Origin: a virus
IMG/VR virus record: IMGVR_UViG_3300020473_000024
Span: 1-64,000 of that record
Length of the DNA: 64,000 nt
Reading direction: 5' to 3' (one strand)
Below the pieces are notes generated by a model. The model made no database searches. It saw only the letters and a program-made list of their open reading frames with translations, and was not told the origin of the DNA. Shown here one piece after another: positions 47,235-62,517 of the stretch (positions within the stretch are counted from its first letter, which is position 1; each line of letters opens with the position of its first letter). Made by a program: the position numbers and the translations under genes.

Positions 47235-47774
47235 TTATTCTCCCAGTTGCTTCTTAATTTGTTCAGCCTGTTCTGGCGTTACTTCTAGTGTTAGCGTCAC
47301 TTTCTCAGGCTTACGTTCAAATAATACAGTTCCATCACGATCGATAACTTTCATTATATCCCACTCTGATTGATTGAAGTGGGTTAAGTCATCTTCGATT
47401 TCGCACAGCTTGAAGCGAGTAAACAAGCTGAAATCTCTTGAGCCTAGTACATCACCCATGAGTTTACGACTAATCCGAGAATTACGGTGATGCAATCTTA
47501 CGCCATCCCATTTGCGCTTCTTCAAATCACTCTTACTAAATTGCTTTTGTGCCATTCCAATCTTCTCCTTAAATTGTTGCTTGGTGAGCTTAACCGAATT
47601 AGTATTCTCACAATAACAAGTCCAGAAATAACCAAGCGCTGGGCTATATTTTAAGTATGTATCACTACTAGCCCACTCATACTGGATGTCACTTACAGAA
47701 TAATTCTCCCAGATATAGTCCAGCATTTCTTGATCAAAATCATCTGTGTAAAAACTTTCATTAAAGTGATTCAT
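47235..47774 (-). CDS. two-module hypothetical protein
   Basis: Internal RBS+ATG at 47555; WDIMKV...LFER. Confidence 0.6.
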   Translation of the reverse strand: MNHFNESFYTDDFDQEMLDYIWENYSVSDIQYEWASSDTYLKYSPALGYFWTCYCENTNSVKLTKQQFKEKIGMAQKQFSKSDLKKRKWDGVRLHHRNSRISRKLMGDVLGSRDFSLFTRFKLCEIEDDLTHFNQSEWDIMKVIDRDGTVLFERKPEKVTLTLEVTPEQAEQIKKQLGE

Positions 47775-47911
47775 AATTTCTCCTTATTCATTAGACATAA
47801 CCCACTGTTGCCACAGCAAGACTAACAGAATCACACCACAAAGTAAAGACATTTTGATAAGTGGTATGAGAAAAATCTGGATAGCTAAATATAATACATA
47901 TTCTGTCATAC

Positions 47912-48163
47912 TTACCTCTTAGTTCCACATGTATCCGCTAATTTCCTATAGTGTGTTAATAACTCCTCTTCCAACCTTTTCATAGCAACAGCTTTATTTC
48001 TGTGCTGACTACGACTACTATCTTCTTTTACCTCTATCCCTGTCGGTATGTGGATGATATGAACTCCTTTTGCCATGTGAAAACCAAAAGAGCCAGAATA
48101 GAGTGCCCTCCTGTCATAGGAGAATATTCTAATATCATCTATGTTTATGACTGACTCAGACAT
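47912..48163 (-). CDS. peptide chain release factor (RF-1) domain-like protein lacking GGQ
   Basis: V.I.HIPTGI.V.....RSQH.NK..AM..L matches class I RF domain 3. Confidence 0.75.
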   Translation of the reverse strand: MSESVINIDDIRIFSYDRRALYSGSFGFHMAKGVHIIHIPTGIEVKEDSSRSQHRNKAVAMKRLEEELLTHYRKLADTCGTKR

Positions 48164-48483
48164 AATAACCTCTTCTGTTCTTTAATAGCCTCTTCTTCTC
48201 GAACATCTGTTTTGTCTGTATACTGGATATATGCCAACCTACTATCTCCATGTCCACAACAAGCATTCATTATCTCTTTATCTCCATCATTAACAAGAGT
48301 GCCTAAACAGCCATCATGCCCTTCTGGTGTTGGAAACTTTAGACATTCTCTACAGCGTAACCGTTGACCACCGCTGGCTAATAAAGGAGTCCATAACTTC
48401 TCACCTGTCTCTGTTAGTATCCAATACCCATCTTCATAGTGGATAGGATGCCCTAATGTGAACGCTCTCACTGTCATAATCAC
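48145..48483 (-). CDS. Cys/His-rich hypothetical protein
   Basis: C..C...GHDGCLG.L...NACCGHG. Confidence 0.65.
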   Translation of the reverse strand: MIMTVRAFTLGHPIHYEDGYWILTETGEKLWTPLLASGGQRLRCRECLKFPTPEGHDGCLGTLVNDGDKEIMNACCGHGDSRLAYIQYTDKTDVREEEAIKEQKRLLCLSQS

Positions 48484-48692
48484 TCCTTACTAAAATTGCT
48501 TTTTAGAACCCATTCTCCATTGTTCATATTAAACTTCATACCTGTGCTTGGGTCAATAGCAGACCATGAGAGATTGCCTCCTAGAGTTTCTAAATATTGT
48601 AGCAGTCCTTCGGCTTCTTCTGCTGTAACTCTCTCTGCTGTCAACCTCATTGGCTTATACACGAATAGCGTTATATTCATACTACTCACCAT
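48480..48692 (-). CDS. hypothetical protein
   Basis: Coupled ORF. Confidence 0.45.
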   Translation of the reverse strand: MVSSMNITLFVYKPMRLTAERVTAEEAEGLLQYLETLGGNLSWSAIDPSTGMKFNMNNGEWVLKSNFSKE

Positions 48693-53756: not shown

Positions 53757-55388
53757 TTACCCCCAAAGACGTTCTCGAATCTCTTGGAAAGATTGTGTGT
53801 TAAAAAGCTCCCCATCTTTAAAGACTGTCTTCAGAAGCCCTTGTTGCTCTTGCTCTCGTGTTTGTTGATCGAAAAGGGCAATATTCCCATTCTCGTCATA
53901 ATCTACACGGAGTAAACCTTTAGCAGACTTTTTAGTACCATCGTCTGTAGCAGGATCTTTAAACAGCTCGTGGGATTGTCCATTCACCTCTGCGTAGGTT
54001 GCCTTTACTGCCATACCAAGAGTATCACGGGTCATGTACTGCATCGTAAAACTACCCACACCAAACACTACATTTGTAGAGGCAAAGCCTTTATCGGCTA
54101 ATCGCTCACAAATCTGCTGGATACGTTCATAGTTCATACTATCCCCGTAGATAAGACCTACACGCTCGTGCAGTACACGATAGCCTTGCTCAGTCTCAGT
54201 ACCACCGAAGATGTCCCACAACACTTCGATTGCACCTTTCACTTCGTGCTCTGCTAACTCTTTTCCAAGAACAGCCTTACCTCTGAAGTTGTTAAGTTCA
54301 AACCACTGTCCGTCTATCTTCACAGCCTCAGGCATCTTAAGAACGTTATTATTGTAGTGATACAAAGCCAAGTCTGCTTCAGTAAATTCCTTGTCACTTG
54401 TTGTGTAGCCAGTAACAATCTTAACAGGATCACCACTATCGGGACGAAATACTGTCTTAGCAATACCCAACTCATTTGGAATACGGTTAAGGATATCCTG
54501 TTTCAATTCAACTACATACTCAGTTAATACCTTCCAAAAATCAAAAGTGTCTGAGATAACTGATACAATACCCGTAGGGTAGTCTTCTGTAATCCACTTA
54601 CGCAACATTTCCAGTTCGCCTCGTACAGCAATACCTGTTGAAGCTAGACTGTGTTCACTCGCTGGAACAGAGGTTGAAATAAATTCATTACTCCAGTGTG
54701 ATTTATAGTAGTTAGCAATAAACTGATTAGCTGGAACTGTGTCACTACCATTACTAGATAGTAAGAATGCACTACTACTCTTAGCGGAATCTTGACGGTT
54801 AGACATCCCACGGAAGCTAAAGTCGTGTAGCTGAAACTCTGTACCGTCAGTAGAGCCTGTTGTGTGAACAGCACACTTATTAACAAGCTTACGGTAGTAC
54901 CAGATTAAGGTTGCTACCGTCTGTGCTTTCCAAGTCTCACAGCTCATAATAGTTTCGACAAAGTTGGTCAACCAAGCGAACTGTGGGATAGTGTTCTGAA
55001 TTGTGTAAGTAGGCACTTTAATAGGTACTACCATACCTTCTGGTAAAGCCTTAACTTCCAAAGGTAGATAACCTAGGCGGTGTAGCTCTCGGAAGTGTTC
55101 TGTCTTCTCGTAAGGCATACCATAAACGTCTTTGTAAAAACCTTGCAAGTATCCTACAGCACTATCTTCAGGCATATTGAAGAAAGTGACTGACATTTCT
55201 GTTAGGAAAAAATCAATAAGCGTGTGTTGCAAGCCGTACACAACGTAGACACCTTCTTTCTCTATCTCTGGGATAGGTAGCCACTTCTCACTACGAGGGG
55301 TCATGTTAGAATAGATCAAGGTTGTTCCATTCTCCATAAAACCTTTATGAGATAGTTTGTAGCTGTCGGTTTGAATCATACCGTTCAT
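53757..55388 (-). CDS. nadV: nicotinamide phosphoribosyltransferase-like (NAMPT/Namat)
   Basis: TDSYKLSH, LHDFSFRG, SVPASEHS, FRPDSGDP, IYGD, GVGS, KKSAKG. Confidence 0.92.
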   Translation of the reverse strand: MNGMIQTDSYKLSHKGFMENGTTLIYSNMTPRSEKWLPIPEIEKEGVYVVYGLQHTLIDFFLTEMSVTFFNMPEDSAVGYLQGFYKDVYGMPYEKTEHFRELHRLGYLPLEVKALPEGMVVPIKVPTYTIQNTIPQFAWLTNFVETIMSCETWKAQTVATLIWYYRKLVNKCAVHTTGSTDGTEFQLHDFSFRGMSNRQDSAKSSSAFLLSSNGSDTVPANQFIANYYKSHWSNEFISTSVPASEHSLASTGIAVRGELEMLRKWITEDYPTGIVSVISDTFDFWKVLTEYVVELKQDILNRIPNELGIAKTVFRPDSGDPVKIVTGYTTSDKEFTEADLALYHYNNNVLKMPEAVKIDGQWFELNNFRGKAVLGKELAEHEVKGAIEVLWDIFGGTETEQGYRVLHERVGLIYGDSMNYERIQQICERLADKGFASTNVVFGVGSFTMQYMTRDTLGMAVKATYAEVNGQSHELFKDPATDDGTKKSAKGLLRVDYDENGNIALFDQQTREQEQQGLLKTVFKDGELFNTQSFQEIRERLWG

Positions 55389-55389
55389 G

Positions 55390-56259
55390 TTATTCTCCTC
55401 CATTAAAATCATCGATATCTTTTAGGCTAATATAATTAGCCACTGTTTGTTCACAATATATATTGTCTACCAAACCTTTGAAGATGTCAAGACCTTTTGA
55501 AAAGATTCCGTGTGTTACGTATAAAGAAACAGAGTTAGCTCCAGCCTCTTTAAGGGCTTCAGCACATTTCAAAAAGGTCATACCTCCATCACAGATATCA
55601 TCGGTAATCAAAATATCTTTCCCCAATACAATCTCAGGACTCTCAAGCTTGAATCCAGTGATCCAGCCCGTAGAAACATCCCGTTCTTTCTCACAAAAAG
55701 TAACAGGCACTTGGAACACAAAACCGTTCTGAAGTGTTTTATCTACAGCTCCTTTATCTGGTGCTACAAACAAACAACTTTCTTTTTTAATCAAGTCAGA
55801 AAGACTTTCATTTCTACGGCAAGTATTAAGTAGACAGTCATATTGGCTAATCTCCTCAATCATATTCCTGACCATCACATCTTCTTTAACCACATCGCTA
55901 TGAAGATCTTTGCACAGTATTTTATCAAAACTCGTTGTCCAAAGACACTGAATAAACACTTGTAAAGGGGCTACCATCCCTTCTTCAAAAGGTCGATCTG
56001 CCCTAGCATGAGGAAAGTAAGGTAGGTTAAGCTTTCGCTCCACAGTGGAAGATATATTAGCCTTTACAAGAATTTCATCTACCACTTCGATTATATTGGA
56101 GTAGCTTGCTACTGGTGTATCTGGGGAGATGGTGAGGCAAACATAATTCTCCAGATTTTCTAAAGCTTCCTTATCGATCTGGATATTAAAACCACCGTCA
56201 CTGAACTCTATAAATTTAGTGGAGATTTCTTTATTATCCCCTATAACCTGAATAGTCAT
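55390..56259 (-). CDS. prs: ribose-phosphate pyrophosphokinase-like (Prs/Adps)
   Basis: FSDG, PYFPHARADR, DLHS, APDKGA, DDICDGGMTF, VTHGIFS. Confidence 0.9.
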   Translation of the reverse strand: MTIQVIGDNKEISTKFIEFSDGGFNIQIDKEALENLENYVCLTISPDTPVASYSNIIEVVDEILVKANISSTVERKLNLPYFPHARADRPFEEGMVAPLQVFIQCLWTTSFDKILCKDLHSDVVKEDVMVRNMIEEISQYDCLLNTCRRNESLSDLIKKESCLFVAPDKGAVDKTLQNGFVFQVPVTFCEKERDVSTGWITGFKLESPEIVLGKDILITDDICDGGMTFLKCAEALKEAGANSVSLYVTHGIFSKGLDIFKGLVDNIYCEQTVANYISLKDIDDFNGGE

Positions 56260-57813: not shown

Positions 57814-58758
57814 TTAAAATTCTACGTTATATTTACCTACTTGGATAATATTCGGGATATCCAATAAATCCCACATGCGAACAACCTGAGGTCGATCATC
57901 AAACAAAGCAATAACATTATACTTGCCACGAACTTGGTTGTCAAATAATTCATACTTAATAATGTCATCTTTTCGACTGTCTTTGGGAGATCGTTGGTAA
58001 AGATCCCATTTAATACCCAGCCGAGCTAAATCGTCTGTGATAATGTTGTCCTCAATCCACTGTGCAGAGGAATCGTAGCAGACTCCATCCCTGCCAGAAA
58101 AGAATGTAATATGTCCCGTCTTAAGTGCTAGAGCACTCACCATATCGATGACCTCTTGGCGGGGCTTATCTAAATGAACTTTATCCCAATCAAAAGGTTT
58201 CCGAACACCAGTCATATCCGCAACAGTGCCATCTAAGTCCACGATGATAGTATCCTCTAGGAATAGACAATCTTCGTAGGGCTTGATTTTATTTCCACCA
58301 ATAGTACCAAATTGTTGCATAAAACGCTTGTATTGACTCCAAAGAAGACTTTCTGGTAAACCGCCCTCACGCTGTGCATTCCGTTTGACAAGTGTTTCCC
58401 AGCTTTCTTGGAAATATTTATACTCCACTTCATAGCCGTTCTCTTCAGCCCAACTCTCCCATTTACCTCGGATGGCTGGGCTGAGGTTCGTGTCAGAAAT
58501 AATAATGTTATGCTGTAGTACAGAGGCATCAAAAGCCTTTTGATCGACCACTTTTGTAACACGTTTTTCATTACTATTGTTGAACTTGTACTTTGTCCAA
58601 TCCCGAACACCATTGTTAAACAAAGCAAAGCGAATATCATCACGGTTGAGATTGACCCACTTAGGGTCTCCTTGCAGGGCTTGTTCTAAGATATACTCTT
58701 CAGCCCATTTTGTCTTACCAGAGCTGGACGCTCCTACAGTCATAATTAATTTAAGCAT
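57814..58758 (-). CDS. pseT: polynucleotide 5'-kinase / 3'-phosphatase
   Basis: GASSSGKT, NRDDIR, SDTNL; DLDGT, SGR, FDDR. Confidence 0.92.
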   Translation of the reverse strand: MLKLIMTVGASSSGKTKWAEEYILEQALQGDPKWVNLNRDDIRFALFNNGVRDWTKYKFNNSNEKRVTKVVDQKAFDASVLQHNIIISDTNLSPAIRGKWESWAEENGYEVEYKYFQESWETLVKRNAQREGGLPESLLWSQYKRFMQQFGTIGGNKIKPYEDCLFLEDTIIVDLDGTVADMTGVRKPFDWDKVHLDKPRQEVIDMVSALALKTGHITFFSGRDGVCYDSSAQWIEDNIITDDLARLGIKWDLYQRSPKDSRKDDIIKYELFDNQVRGKYNVIALFDDRPQVVRMWDLLDIPNIIQVGKYNVEF

Positions 58759-60053
58759 TAACTAGAATCCTCCATATCAACGTTGTTTTCTCTATAAATG
58801 CCCTCCAAAATTTTAAAAGGGATAGACTTATTCTTATAGAACTTCGGCACTAACGTCTCTCCATCTACACGAATCACAACACCCTCGCTAATGTGGGATG
58901 GGTCTCGATAGTCCTCACAAAGGTTATCTTCACGCTCTGTTAATACGTCTACCACATTCATTAAACTGTCAGAGTCTCCTCGGTAAACAAAAGGCTCTAC
59001 TAGATCAAGAGTAGATTCAATACCACGGTCTTCACACCAACGTTTGAATTGACTTTGTGTTAAATCAATTTCTGTGCCATCGATGGACGTGATTGTCACA
59101 CGATAAGCATAAAACTTATACTCATCTGGGAGGCAGTTATAAGTGTAAGTAATCTCTTTACCATACTTCTTAGTGAACTGCTTATCCTTTAGTTTAGTTA
59201 CGTCATGCGTACCCATAATAGGTTTACCATTAGCAAAGCCTACAATCTCTCCATACACAGTAACACCTCGGTTAAGGAAGGGTTTTAGTTGCTCTAAAAT
59301 CTCAAAGCGGAAGCCTTCATTACCGTGAAATCCTTCTTTATCTTTTTGAGAATTTTTAAGAACAACCCTGCGTGTCCCTGCTACATAATCCCACTCCTGA
59401 GTCTCGAAAATAGGAACAACCTTATTTACAAGACGTTTCCACCAAGGTAATTCTTTCTCAACTAAGGTGTGGCTATAACGAGCCGATGTTCCATGACCTT
59501 TTGCTTGAATACTAATAATAGAGCCAGCTGGAATGCGATCAACATGATACTTGAATTGATCAGTATCAACGTGTTGATGAAATAAAGGTGTTTCTTGCTT
59601 CTTACGCGCTTTTGTCCTTTGATTTGCTTGGGCTTTTTTAGTGCGAGGGTTGATATACTTCTGAGCAATAGGCACTCCATTTAGTTCTTCAAACATCATG
59701 CCTAACTCTAACTTACTGATATCATACCCTGTAAAATGGAAGGACTCTAACCCAGCAAAGTAACCACACGACTTAACACCTAAGAAAGGTTGTGCGCGTA
59801 CCCTGCGGTTATCTTCAAAGAATCCCTTAGCCTTTGGGTTTTTGTTGTTTTCACTGTTACGATACAGCCCATTATCACTAACATAATCGTGAGATAGTTG
59901 AGTCTCAGCTGGGAAGTACACACCTAAGTCTCCCTCTTTAGCTGTCTTGGATACGATAACAGGCTCACCAAGTACATAAGCTACTTGGATGTTATCTGCT
60001 TTTTCAATCTGTTCTGTTTTTGCAATCTTAGCAATAATACCACAGTAGTTCAT
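58758..60053 (-). CDS. RNA ligase (Rnl2/DRB0094-like) with N-terminal OB domain
   Basis: I.KAD.I.V, K.HGTS, YGEIVG, EGVVIR, K.KS..F. Confidence 0.85.
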   Translation of the reverse strand: MNYCGIIAKIAKTEQIEKADNIQVAYVLGEPVIVSKTAKEGDLGVYFPAETQLSHDYVSDNGLYRNSENNKNPKAKGFFEDNRRVRAQPFLGVKSCGYFAGLESFHFTGYDISKLELGMMFEELNGVPIAQKYINPRTKKAQANQRTKARKKQETPLFHQHVDTDQFKYHVDRIPAGSIISIQAKGHGTSARYSHTLVEKELPWWKRLVNKVVPIFETQEWDYVAGTRRVVLKNSQKDKEGFHGNEGFRFEILEQLKPFLNRGVTVYGEIVGFANGKPIMGTHDVTKLKDKQFTKKYGKEITYTYNCLPDEYKFYAYRVTITSIDGTEIDLTQSQFKRWCEDRGIESTLDLVEPFVYRGDSDSLMNVVDVLTEREDNLCEDYRDPSHISEGVVIRVDGETLVPKFYKNKSIPFKILEGIYRENNVDMEDSS

Positions 60054-60072
60054 TAAAATACCTCCTAAATTT

Positions 60073-60127
60073 AGACAATAAAAAGCCATGTACCCAAAAG
60101 GATACACGGCTTAACTAGGATTGTCAA
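60073..60127 (-). promoter_or_regulatory. composite promoter/terminator
   Basis: TTGACA-17-TATCCT inside hairpin AGCCGTGTATCC-TTTT-GGGTACATGGCTTTTT. Confidence 0.65.
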
Positions 60128-62116: not shown

Positions 62117-62193
62117 TGGTGGGTCGAGAGGGATTTGAACCCCCGATCCACTCGTTAAAAGCGAGTTGCCTTACCAGACTTGGCTATCGACCC
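62117..62193 (-). tRNA. tRNA-Lys(TTT)
   Basis: Cloverleaf, ACTCG-CTTTTAA-CGAGT, GTTCAAATC, CCA. Confidence 0.92.
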
Positions 62194-62198
62194 TGATT

Positions 62199-62273
62199 TG
62201 GAGCTTGCTGGGGGTTACGATCCCCCGACCTCTGCTTGGAAGGCAGATATTTTACCAATTAAACTAAGCAAGC
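62199..62273 (-). tRNA. tRNA-Gly(TCC)
   Basis: TCTGC-CTTCCAA-GCAGA, U73, CCA; atypical T loop ATCGTAA. Confidence 0.85.
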
Positions 62274-62278
62274 CAATG

Positions 62279-62355
62279 TGGTGCGCCAAGGCGGTTATGA
62301 TCCGCTCCTACTCCTAGTTATGAGCTAGTTGCTTTCCCGATTAAGCTATTGGCGC
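62279..62355 (-). tRNA. tRNA-Met/Ile2(CAT)
   Basis: CTAG-CTCATAA-CTAG, CCA; atypical T loop ATCATAA. Confidence 0.8.
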
Positions 62356-62360
62356 GAAAA

Positions 62361-62436
62361 TGGTAGTGGTGGCAGGAATCGAACCTGCGACACGTAGATT
62401 ATCGGTCTACTGTTCTACCAGCTGAACTACACCACT
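62361..62436 (-). tRNA. tRNA-Ile(GAT)
   Basis: GTAGA-CCGATAA-TCTAC, GTTCGATTC, CCA; C at position 33. Confidence 0.88.
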
Positions 62437-62440
62437 GGAT

Positions 62441-62517
62441 TGGCTGAGGTGGAGGGATTCGAACCCCCGACCATCTGCTTAGAAGGCAGATGCTCTATCC
62501 AACTGAGCTACACCCCA
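62441..62517 (-). tRNA. tRNA-Arg(TCT)
   Basis: TCTGC-CTTCTAA-GCAGA, GTTCGAATC, GCCA. Confidence 0.92.

What the first reader, a model, noticed from the sequence alone, without database searches (positions are those of the whole stretch)
47912..48163. Standalone release-factor domain with the catalytic GGQ replaced
Seen: DDIRIFSY...SGSFGFHMAKGVHIIHIPTGIEVKEDSSRSQHRNKAVAMKRL aligns with class I RF domain 3 (GGQHVN...AVRITHLPTGI.V.....RSQH.NK..AM..L) but has no GGQ, no codon-reading domain and no long basic ArfB tail. Established: GGQ is essential for peptidyl-tRNA hydrolysis and is methylated by PrmC. Inference: an inactive mimic that blocks ribosome rescue or termination, or decoys PrmC or an RF-targeting defence.
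Basis: partly seen in the sequence, partly recalled or inferred. Interest (0 to 1): 0.7.

Follow-up and report, generated by a model that had tools for sequence, protein, structure and literature searches.

The report
Phage mini release-factor domain lacking GGQ
An uncultured marine phage carries an 83-residue gene that copies only the peptide-releasing domain of bacterial release factors but has lost its catalytic loop; it belongs to a large, conserved and untested phage family that probably binds rather than cuts.

Summary
Window 47912-48163 (minus strand) is an intact 83-aa gene with a Shine-Dalgarno site. It scores above Pfam's cut-off for the RF-1 domain. It folds as RF1/RF2 domain 3 (pLDDT 86.7; TM 0.76 to RF2). 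It has no GGQ: its only glutamine is Q53 in RSQH. It also has no codon-reading domain and no ArfB-type tail.

It is not a decaying remnant. Of 148 cluster representatives found, 116 carry the domain without GGQ. These keep the non-catalytic core (H38, P40, G42, R51, S52, N56, A60, L64) as strongly as true release factors, but lack the whole catalytic segment. They form essentially one, mostly viral, clade.

There is no conserved neighbour gene and no tRNA linkage. One related clade fuses the domain to a ribosomal bL12 fragment. PrmC docking gave only weak support.

The most likely reading is a non-catalytic binder of the translation machinery; its target is untested. My searches found no functional study. 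This scan has already met the same family on other phage DNA.

The parts
47912..48163 (-). Complete 83-aa gene: a stand-alone bacterial release-factor domain 3 (RF-1 / PF00472) without GGQ
   Evidence: ORF list. Pfam 40.5 bits against a cut-off of 35. PHROG 20323 E 1.6e-11. AF2 model pLDDT 86.7. Foldseek top hits are RF2/RF1.
48169..48174 (-). Shine-Dalgarno-like AAGAGG, 5 nt upstream of the ATG at 48163-48161
   Evidence: Read directly from the sequence.
48116..48133 (-). Strand beta1 (residues 11-16, IRIFSY), preceded by the conserved D10
   Evidence: DSSP on the model. D10 is conserved in 85% of GGQ-less and 81% of canonical domains.
48068..48115 (-). Loop of residues 17-32, in place of the catalytic R-S-G-x-G-G-Q-H-V-N-K-T-x-S segment. 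It contains SGSFGFHM; FGF lies at 48080-48088.
   Evidence: phmmer alignment to RF2. Per-column comparison of 137 GGQ-less with 123 GGQ domains. Mean pLDDT for residues 21-30 is 68.
48038..48052 (-). HIPTG motif (residues 38-42), at the end of strand beta2 and the turn
   Evidence: In GGQ-less domains: H38 99%, P40 98%, T41 86%, G42 95%. In canonical domains: 100/100/98/100%.
47993..48013 (-). RSQHRNK motif (residues 51-57), at the start of the long helix
   Evidence: In GGQ-less domains: R51 87%, S52 87%, Q53 74%, H54 88%, N56 98%, K/R57 94%.
47927..48007 (-). Long C-terminal helix (residues 53-79). I equate it, from memory, with helix alpha7 of RF domain 3. Only 4 residues follow it.
   Evidence: DSSP on the model. 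A60 93% and L64 93% conserved.

Best explanation
What it is (high confidence): a complete, selectively maintained phage gene that encodes only domain 3 of a bacterial class I release factor, of the RF1/RF2 type rather than the ArfB type. The catalytic GGQ loop and the short helix after it are replaced by a variable G-G/S-[F/W] loop (here SGSFGF). It belongs to a large, mostly viral clade of such proteins.

How it most likely works (inferred, not shown): it does not hydrolyse peptidyl-tRNA. It keeps the fold and the conserved non-catalytic surface of domain 3 (HxPTG, RSQHxN[K/R], the long helix). It uses them as a binding module at the place where domain 3 normally docks, the A-site side of the large ribosomal subunit near the peptidyl-transferase centre. 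There it would modulate termination or ribosome rescue during infection, rather than catalyse release.

It has no decoding domain and no tail, so its access may be limited to particular ribosome states, for example vacant A sites or 50S-peptidyl-tRNA complexes. That last step is speculation.
For: Shown:
- RF-1 membership and fold.
- The catalytic segment is lost, and Q53 is the only Gln.
- 116 of 148 representatives carry the domain without GGQ; 28 have GGQ; 4 are spurious.
- In 137 GGQ-less sequences the core positions are as conserved as in 123 canonical ones (H38 99 vs 100%, P40 98 vs 100%, N56 98 vs 99%, A60 93 vs 95%, L64 93 vs 95%). The retained surface and fold are therefore under selection.
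- On 51 core columns with the loop excluded, the GGQ state changes 12 times on a 245-tip tree, against a mean of 80.6 and a minimum of 66 in 200 label shuffles. One clade of 129 tips (123 GGQ-less, support 0.79) includes the query.
- The nearest Atlas clusters have 253, 76, 71 and 108 members and are 66-93% viral.
- No partner gene is conserved across lineages in the 22 loci clustered. That fits a universal host target.
- Link to the translation machinery: three Otagovirus-type relatives fuse the domain to a fragment of ribosomal protein bL12's C-terminal domain (PF00542: 29.5 and 28.3 bits against a cut-off of 25.9; 24.2 in the third).
- Precedent for inactive bacterial-type RF domains with a binding or structural role on ribosomes: MRPS35, per PMC6514570 (passages).
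Against: - No binding was tested.
- PMC7427801 (passages) states that most residues essential for ArfB ribosome binding and hydrolysis are in the C-terminal tail, not the GGQ domain. A tail-less domain may therefore bind the ribosome poorly on its own.
- A general A-site blocker would also hurt the phage's own translation.
- The bL12 fusion is confined to one clade: 0 of 48 long family members scanned have it, and a profile of the extension finds it only in that clade. Two of those proteins also have a Gln one residue out of register (GGMQ).
- I could not superpose the model on a ribosome-bound RF to test for clashes. Which conserved residues touch rRNA is recalled, not tested.
- The gene itself is not covered by the RNA-library contigs I laid, so expression is not shown.
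Confidence: 0.4

Rival explanations
1. A binding module for another component of the translation system, or for some other host factor, rather than the ribosomal A site. Candidates are a translational GTPase such as RF3 or EF-G, the acceptor end of a tRNA or peptidyl-tRNA off the ribosome, or the body of host RF1/RF2.
For: - The tail-less domain lacks the elements that anchor ArfB.
- The bL12 C-terminal domain fused to relatives is, from my recall, the part of bL12 that recruits translational GTPases.
- One family member (P0041, 129 aa) is a tandem duplication of the domain, which hints at a dimeric unit that would not fit an A site.
- The family behaves as a solitary accessory gene.
Against: No partner is indicated by any search. 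What is conserved is exactly what canonical RFs conserve, which is most simply explained by the same docking site.
Confidence: 0.28
2. A PrmC (HemK) decoy or inhibitor. It occupies the methyltransferase that modifies the GGQ glutamine of host RF1/RF2 and so lowers host termination efficiency.
For: Controlled docking with E. coli PrmC gave 'weak support':
- Median score 0.32 (runs 0.35, 0.32, 0.23) against a best control of 0.02.
- Partner pLDDT at least 70; runs agree in at least 74% of contacts.
- The mark was reached by 58 of 80 solved complexes and 2 of 110 mismatched pairs. At 0.60 or under, it was reached by only 7 of those 80 and by both mismatches.

prmC inactivation reduces RF activity 3- to 4-fold (PMC3152332 passages).
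Against: - The tool itself rates such a pass as more often wrong than right.
- An RF1-PrmC complex is solved (2b3t, seen), so the pass may reflect likeness only.
- E. coli PrmC is a stand-in for an unknown host.
[quoted passage not shown] This protein has neither the other domains nor the Gln.
Confidence: 0.1
3. It still catalyses peptidyl-tRNA hydrolysis, or another hydrolysis, with a non-canonical loop.
For: - A few mini proteins nested in the same clade keep GGQ (P0074 99 aa, P0124 80 aa, L033 73 aa). The scaffold was therefore probably once catalytic, and can presumably reach its substrate without a tail.
- Otagovirus-type relatives have GGMQ.
- From recall: the Gln side chain is less critical for catalysis than the two glycines.
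Against: - Here not only Gln but the whole R-S-G-x-G-G-Q-H-V-N-K-T-x-S segment is gone.
- The loop is not conserved across the family beyond a G-G/S-[F/W] preference of 38-51% per column.
- Bulky aromatics sit where glycines are needed.
- References cited in PMC6514570 (reference list seen) report that GGQ mutations abolish release.
Confidence: 0.1
4. A decaying remnant of a captured release-factor gene with no function.
For: It is small, lacks the catalytic motif, and lies among small genes of unknown function.
Against: - The ORF is intact, has an SD site, and is the same length as its relatives.
- 116 clusters at 50% identity keep the domain, with core conservation equal to canonical RFs.
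- Whole-gene dN 0.214 / dS 1.206 in the one related clade pair I could measure (dS is near saturation and the clade is a different one).
- The identical protein was seen on 7 contigs.
Confidence: 0.02

Closest known systems
Domain 3 (GGQ / peptidyl-hydrolase domain, Pfam PF00472) of bacterial class I release factors RF2 and RF1
   Same: Same fold (three strands plus a long helix; TM 0.76 to 1gqe). Same conserved HxPTG and RSQHxN[K/R] motifs. It is the best sequence relative: the family profile hits RF2 at E 3.2e-21 and RF1 at 1.4e-20.
   Different: No GGQ and no catalytic segment. No domains 1, 2 or 4, so no stop-codon reading. NCBIfam RF1/RF2 equivalog scores are about 35 bits against cut-offs of 370-423.
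ArfB (YaeJ) / ICT1 / MTRFR (C12orf65): stand-alone GGQ-domain rescue factors
   Same: A stand-alone RF-type domain without codon recognition.
   Different: Those proteins keep GGQ and need a basic C-terminal tail; this one has neither. Sequence similarity is much weaker: ArfB E 5.9e-4 and C12orf65 E 7.3e-10, against 3.2e-21 for RF2. The family therefore derives from the RF1/RF2 type.
PrfH (release factor H, partner of RtcB2)
   Same: A shortened release factor. It is hit by the family profile at E 7e-14 and by Foldseek (9mor).
   Different: The NCBIfam PrfH equivalog scores 35.6 bits against a cut-off of 166.65. From recall, PrfH keeps GGQ and a recognition domain. There is no RtcB here; the phage's RNA ligase is of the Rnl type and lies 10 kb away.
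Catalytically inactive RF-type domains: mitochondrial MRPS35 (bacterial type) and Dom34/Pelota (archaeo-eukaryotic type)
   Same: Loss of the catalytic glutamine with retention of the fold and a ribosome-associated, non-hydrolytic role (PMC6514570 passages). This is the best functional analogy.
   Different: No direct relationship was tested. Those proteins carry extra domains that place them on the ribosome; this one is the bare domain and is viral.
PHROG 20323 'RF-1 domain peptide chain release factor', and GenBank phage genes labelled 'peptide chain release factor 1' (e.g. Pseudomonas phage VCM prfA)
   Same: The query matches PHROG 20323 over 2-67 of its 73 positions (E 1.6e-11). tblastn finds the Otagovirus genes at 35-39% identity.
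   Different: These are automatic labels with no tested function. The Otagovirus proteins are 147-163 aa, have GGMQ, SGMS or GGMT loops, and carry a bL12 C-terminal-domain fragment.

Membership tests
Pfam RF-1 domain (PF00472) | HMM score at or above the gathering cut-off | tested here: met
   40.5 bits against a cut-off of 35, E 3e-10. Only profile positions 33-74 of 116 are matched.
Pfam RF-1 domain (PF00472) | Domain-3 fold (beta-beta-beta plus a long helix) | tested here: met
   AF2 model pLDDT 86.7 with E11-16, E33-38, E44-47 and H53-79. The top Foldseek hits listed are all RF1, RF2, mtRF1 or PrfH; TM 0.76, probability 1.00.
Class I release factors RF1/RF2 (functional) | Catalytic GGQ motif | tested here: not met
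   SGSFGFHM aligns with SGAGGQHV. The only Gln is Q53. The family-wide column comparison agrees.
Class I release factors RF1/RF2 (functional) | Codon-recognition domains, and a full-length equivalog score | tested here: not met
   83 aa with only PF00472. TIGR00019 35.4 bits against 423.25; TIGR00020 35.2 against 370; NF001859 35.7 against 400.
ArfB / ICT1 | GGQ plus a long basic C-terminal tail | tested here: not met
   No GGQ. The helix ends at residue 79 of 83. The family profile hits ArfB only at E 5.9e-4. No ArfB model appears among the NCBIfam hits at E up to 0.01.
PrfH | Equivalog score (TIGR03072) | tested here: not met
   35.6 bits against a cut-off of 166.65.
PHROG 20323 (phage RF-1 domain proteins) | Profile match over most of the family profile | tested here: met
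   E 1.6e-11, 44.9 bits; residues 6-73 on profile positions 2-67 of 73. PHROGs has no curated cut-off.
GGQ-less phage mini-RF clade (defined here and in earlier notes of this scan) | Falls in the mostly GGQ-less clade on a tree built without the loop columns, and keeps the HxPTG and RSQHxN[K/R] core | tested here: met
   The query lies inside the 129-tip clade (123 GGQ-less; local support 0.79) on 51 core columns. Core conservation is shown. The alignment is short, so resolution is limited.
Known anti-phage defence components (PADLOC) | Match to any PADLOC model | tested here: not met
   0 families at E up to 0.01.

The most novel reading that the evidence does not exclude
GGQ-less mini release-factor domains are a phage-wide class of natural, non-catalytic ligands of the peptidyl-transferase-centre side of the ribosomal A site. 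They lack decoding domains and tails, so they would act on particular states: vacant A sites, terminating ribosomes after RF departure, or 50S-peptidyl-tRNA complexes. There they would hold back peptide release or rescue, re-tuning host termination and ribosome quality control during infection. Lineage-specific add-ons, such as the bL12 fragment in Otagovirus and the position beside an amber-suppressor-type tRNA in T4-like Acinetobacter phages, would direct them to particular tasks.
Probability: 0.3. Interest if true: 0.8.

Novelty: new variant of a known kind. Interest (0 to 1): 0.55.

Why it matters
Release-factor domain 3 is one of the best-studied catalytic modules of translation. A large viral clade that keeps its scaffold but has discarded the catalytic loop would be a natural set of 'dead' release-factor domains, comparable to Dom34/Pelota or MRPS35 but mobile and minimal.

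If these proteins bind the ribosome near the peptidyl-transferase centre, they would be a new class of phage-encoded modulators of termination or rescue, and compact tools for trapping such states. If they bind something else (PrmC, a GTPase, tRNA), they would reveal an unknown interaction surface of domain 3.

There is also a practical point. [quoted passage not shown]

Tried and rejected
GGQ supplied in trans by the upstream, overlapping gene (48145-48483, which contains ASGGQ):
- GQ is at least 80% conserved among its 76 homologues.
- But only 2 of 80 viral loci of that family have any RF-domain ORF within about 4 kb, and GQ is present in only 34 of 83 ORFs there.
- Rejected as a functional pairing.

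tRNA linkage (lead from PMC5966550, and from earlier scan notes):
- A tRNA gene lies within the locus in 1 of 22 GGQ-less loci, against 2 of 80 control loci.
- This genome has 8 tRNAs, no suppressor and no tmRNA. It uses all three stop codons: TAA 50, TAG 20, TGA 14 among the 84 ORFs of at least 120 aa.
- Not supported for this phage.

Conserved partner gene: none across lineages. Only the Otagovirus-type loci L001, L004 and L149 share neighbours.

Fused domains: 48 of 48 long members match RF-1. Only one carries another Pfam family, PF18909.

Close relatives for synteny and dN/dS:
- The word-index search found only the protein itself and P0002.
- Viral-contig scans with the protein and with alignment A2 confirmed no relative.
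- The metagenome scan's best hit was 45% identical.
- dN/dS for the query's own subclade therefore could not be computed. The Otagovirus pair gave dN 0.214 / dS 1.206. The other two pairs were saturated, and my 'first 62 codons' figures are unreliable because L004 was not trimmed.

Expression:
- Two metatranscriptome runs hold 100%-identical contigs over 47567-47720 and 48521-48685, in the flanking genes.
- No laid contig covers 47938-48473, so all but the last 26 bases of the mini-RF ORF (47912-47937, reached by one DNA contig) are uncovered. DNA can be present in RNA libraries.
- This is no evidence either way.

Promoter and terminator scan: 34 promoter-like sites against 25.3 +/- 5.4 expected. 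Nothing convincing next to the gene.

Misleading database hits: the 'Bacteriophage sp.' fecal record MT839396.1 is a bacterial RF2 with GGQ. CAKLQH020000004.1 is a bacterial prfA-hemK locus. Most loci are canonical GGQ-bearing factors.

Upstream neighbour's fold: model pLDDT 90.5. No Foldseek match at E up to 0.001 (best 1.5). The best VIA-align Z was 3.0. It remains unidentified.

Literature:
- Searches found no functional study of GGQ-less phage RF domains.
- PMC6514570 has 0 occurrences of 'phage' in its main text.
- PMC8012679 gave nothing on domain-3 contacts.
The supplementary family lists of PMC6514570 could bear on whether this clade was already catalogued.

Full report
THE OBSERVATION

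Window 47912..48163 on the minus strand is an 83-codon ORF. An AAGAGG Shine-Dalgarno site sits 5 nt before the ATG.

The ORF lies in a tightly packed, co-directional block of small genes. Its start overlaps the end of the upstream gene by 19 nt. A 41-codon hydrophobic ORF starts 2 nt after its stop.

The window is part of an 85,011-base virus record rated about 99% complete, with this one RF-1 match. The identical protein is on record from 7 contigs.

IS IT A RELEASE-FACTOR DOMAIN?

Yes, by several independent tests:
- Pfam PF00472 scores 40.5 bits against a cut-off of 35 (E 3e-10). The match covers only profile positions 33-74 of 116, the part after the GGQ region.
- PHROG 20323, a 73-position phage family labelled 'RF-1 domain peptide chain release factor', matches at E 1.6e-11.
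- phmmer against PDB sequences gives RF2 at E 8e-6.
- A profile of 40 relatives gives RF2 at E 3.2e-21, RF1 at 1.4e-20, PrfH at 7e-14, C12orf65 at 7.3e-10, and ArfB only at 5.9e-4.
- An AlphaFold2 model built on that alignment is confident (mean pLDDT 86.7). It has three strands (11-16, 33-38, 44-47), one long helix (53-79), and a less confident loop at 17-32.
- Foldseek's best matches are RF2 and RF1 domain 3 (1gqe: E 3.4e-5, probability 1.00, TM 0.76 normalised to the query).

The family therefore descends from the RF1/RF2 type of domain 3 rather than the ArfB/ICT1 type.

IS GGQ REALLY GONE?

Yes. phmmer aligns SGSFGFHM with RF2's SGAGGQHV, so GGQ corresponds to FGF. hmmalign puts SGS under GGQ, so the exact register is ambiguous. 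That does not matter, because the protein's only glutamine is Q53 in RSQH.

No codon-reading domain is present. The RF1, RF2 and PrfH equivalog models of NCBIfam score about 35 bits against cut-offs of 167-423. Only four residues follow the helix, so there is no ArfB-type tail.

A LARGE, CONSERVED FAMILY, NOT A WRECK

An exhaustive HMMER search of 1.84 billion cluster representatives returned 148 proteins at E up to 0.001. I re-scored them with a profile of the family:
- 116 carry the domain without GGQ (median length 136.5 aa; 28 are 100 aa or shorter).
- 28 carry it with GGQ. Most of these look like fragments of ordinary factors.
- 4 are spurious repeat proteins.

I then compared 137 GGQ-less with 123 GGQ-bearing domains, column by column.
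- The core is equally conserved in both sets: D10 85 vs 81%, H38 99 vs 100%, P40 98 vs 100%, G42 95 vs 100%, R51 87 vs 93%, S52 87 vs 92%, N56 98 vs 99%, A60 93 vs 95%, L64 93 vs 95%.
- The whole catalytic segment has no counterpart in the GGQ-less set. In canonical domains it reads R69, S52, G86, G69, G97, Q75, N77, T82, S79 (percent conservation). The GGQ-less set has only a loose G-G/S-[F/W] preference there.

I built a tree on the 51 core columns with the loop removed, to avoid circularity.
- The GGQ state changes 12 times on 245 tips, against a mean of 80.6 and a minimum of 66 in 200 label shuffles.
- One clade of 129 tips (123 GGQ-less, local support 0.79) contains the query.
- The alignment is short, so the branching order is not reliable in detail.
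- A few mini proteins that keep GGQ (P0074, P0124, L033) are nested in that clade.

The nearest ESM Atlas clusters have 71-253 members and are 66-93% viral.

The only dN/dS I could compute is for a different subclade (Otagovirus-type, L001 against L004): dN 0.214, dS 1.206. It is rough, because dS is near saturation.

CONTEXT IN THIS PHAGE

The genome encodes:
- ribonucleotide reductase, DNA polymerase, primase-helicase and a helicase;
- an ATP-dependent DNA ligase and a Dam-type methyltransferase next to the gene;
- NAMPT;
- a polynucleotide kinase-phosphatase and an RNA ligase side by side at 57814-60107;
- PhoH, a ClpP-like protease and a GH108 endolysin;
- eight tRNAs, with no suppressor and no tmRNA.

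Its primase-helicase is 40-46% identical to those of phages of Pseudaeromonas, Pseudomonas, Aeromonas, Acinetobacter and Klebsiella. The host is therefore probably a gammaproteobacterium (inference). Public runs that hold the DNA are labelled marine metagenome.

DOES CONTEXT ACROSS THE FAMILY POINT TO A PARTNER?

No.
- Among the 22 GGQ-less loci clustered (the window included), only the three Otagovirus-type loci share neighbours.
- A tRNA gene lies in 1 of 22 loci, against 2 of 80 control loci. That locus, L030, holds a 78-aa SGARRW protein inside a 7-tRNA array that includes a CUA-anticodon tRNA.
- The upstream gene here contains ASGGQ and belongs to a Cys/His-rich family whose N-terminal GQ is conserved among its closer homologues. 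However, only 2 of 80 viral loci of that family have an RF-domain gene nearby. I reject a split 'GGQ in trans' arrangement.

One real clue did emerge. The Otagovirus-type relatives (Pseudomonas phage VCM 'prfA', L004, L149) fuse the domain to a fragment of the C-terminal domain of ribosomal protein bL12 (PF00542: 29.5 and 28.3 bits against a cut-off of 25.9; 24.2 in the third). This fusion is clade-specific: 0 of 48 other long members have it, and one search agrees. It still ties at least that branch to the ribosome and translation-factor machinery.

MECHANISM

Shown: the fold, the loss of the catalytic segment, selection on the remaining surface, viral distribution, and solitary-gene behaviour.

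Inferred: the protein is a non-catalytic binding module. The simplest target is the site where domain 3 normally docks, on the large subunit beside the peptidyl-transferase centre. The precedents are inactive RF-type domains such as MRPS35 and Dom34 (PMC6514570, passages).

Against this: passages of PMC7427801 state that most residues essential for ArfB's ribosome binding lie in its C-terminal tail. A bare domain may therefore bind weakly, or only to special ribosome states.

I put 0.4 on the ribosome A-site reading and 0.28 on another partner.

THE PrmC IDEA

The controlled complex prediction with E. coli PrmC gave 'weak support':
- Median score 0.32 (runs 0.35, 0.32, 0.23) against a best control of 0.02.
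- Partner pLDDT at least 70; contacts agree in at least 74%.
- The mark was reached by 58 of 80 solved complexes and 2 of 110 mismatched pairs. At 0.60 or under, it was reached by only 7 of those 80 and by both mismatches.

An RF1-PrmC complex is solved (2b3t), so the pass may only reflect likeness, and E. coli is a stand-in host. [quoted passage not shown] Both features are missing here. I keep this rival at 0.1.

RESIDUAL CATALYSIS

I rate this at 0.1. The scaffold was probably once catalytic, since GGQ-bearing minis sit in the clade. Here, though, the loop carries aromatics where the glycines should be, and it is not conserved across the family.

WHAT IS KNOWN

Databases already catalogue such genes (PHROG 20323; GenBank labels 'peptide chain release factor 1'). 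Papers mention them in passing:
[quoted passage not shown] Eight full-text searches found no functional study. The main text of the Burroughs and Aravind survey of release-factor evolution does not mention phages; I could not see its supplements.

Earlier notes of this scan describe the same family on other DNA, mainly 76-78-aa copies in T4-like Acinetobacter phages. My locus L030 matches that description.

VERDICT

This is a new member of a large but functionally unstudied phage clade, which I class as a new variant of a known kind: an RF domain 3 turned non-catalytic. It is of moderate to high interest for translation biology, and its target is still open.

Noticed in passing
window 48145-48483 (-): The upstream gene (112 aa) overlaps the mini-RF start by 19 nt. 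It belongs to an uncharacterised Cys/His-rich phage family: 76 homologues, with C42, C45, EGHDGCL and CCGH invariant. It gave no Pfam, PHROG, NCBIfam or PADLOC hit. Its model is confident (pLDDT 90.5) but has no PDB fold match (Foldseek best E 1.5; VIA best Z 3.0). Its N-terminal [GS][GS]GQ motif is conserved among the closer homologues but is not linked to RF-domain genes (2 of 80 loci).
   Followed up: yes
window 57814-60107 (-) and 62117-62517 (-): A polynucleotide kinase-phosphatase (PF25109 + AAA_33) sits directly next to an RNA ligase (PF09414), close to a five-tRNA cluster. This is a T4-style RNA/tRNA repair kit. It suggests the phage meets host nucleases that attack the translation apparatus.
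   Followed up: partly
L001:3010-3489 (Pseudomonas phage VCM 'prfA'); L004:4001-4489; L149:4998-5441: Otagovirus-type relatives are fusions of an RF-1 domain (loops GGMQ, SGMS or GGMT) with a fragment of the ribosomal protein bL12 C-terminal domain (PF00542). The GenBank label 'peptide chain release factor 1' hides this architecture.
   Followed up: partly
L030:4004-4240, with tRNAs at L030:3218-7274: A 78-aa GGQ-less mini-RF (SGARRW) on a 167,922-base viral contig lies inside an array of 7 tRNA genes. One of them has a CUA anticodon (ARAGORN calls it 'Pyl'), i.e. an amber-suppressor type.
   Followed up: partly
P0041 (129 aa): A single protein made of two tandem GGQ-less mini-RF domains, which hints that the functional unit could be a dimer.
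   Followed up: no
P0074, P0124, L033:3989-4210, L050/L051:3992-4228: Mini proteins of 73-99 aa that keep GGQ but also lack decoding domains and tails. P0074, P0124 and L033 fall inside the mostly GGQ-less clade. How such minimal GGQ domains would reach a ribosome is unexplained.
   Followed up: partly
L031:3992-4411 (= P0119, 139 aa): A longer, ArfB/PrfH-like factor with GGR in place of GGQ (GPGGRH): a different kind of catalytic-motif variant.
   Followed up: no
window 53757-56259 (-): A nicotinamide phosphoribosyltransferase (PHROG 448, E 6e-177) sits next to a phosphoribosyl-transferase/PRPP-synthetase-like gene: an NAD-salvage module.
   Followed up: no
L003 (MT839396.1) and L005 (CAKLQH020000004.1): Records filed as phage in the collection are bacterial DNA at these places: an RF2 with GGQ beside housekeeping genes, and a prfA-hemK operon. 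They inflate apparent 'phage release factor' hits.
   Followed up: yes
window 47784-47909 (-): A 41-codon, strongly hydrophobic ORF starts 2 nt after the mini-RF stop codon. It may be a small membrane peptide, or it may not be a gene.
   Followed up: no
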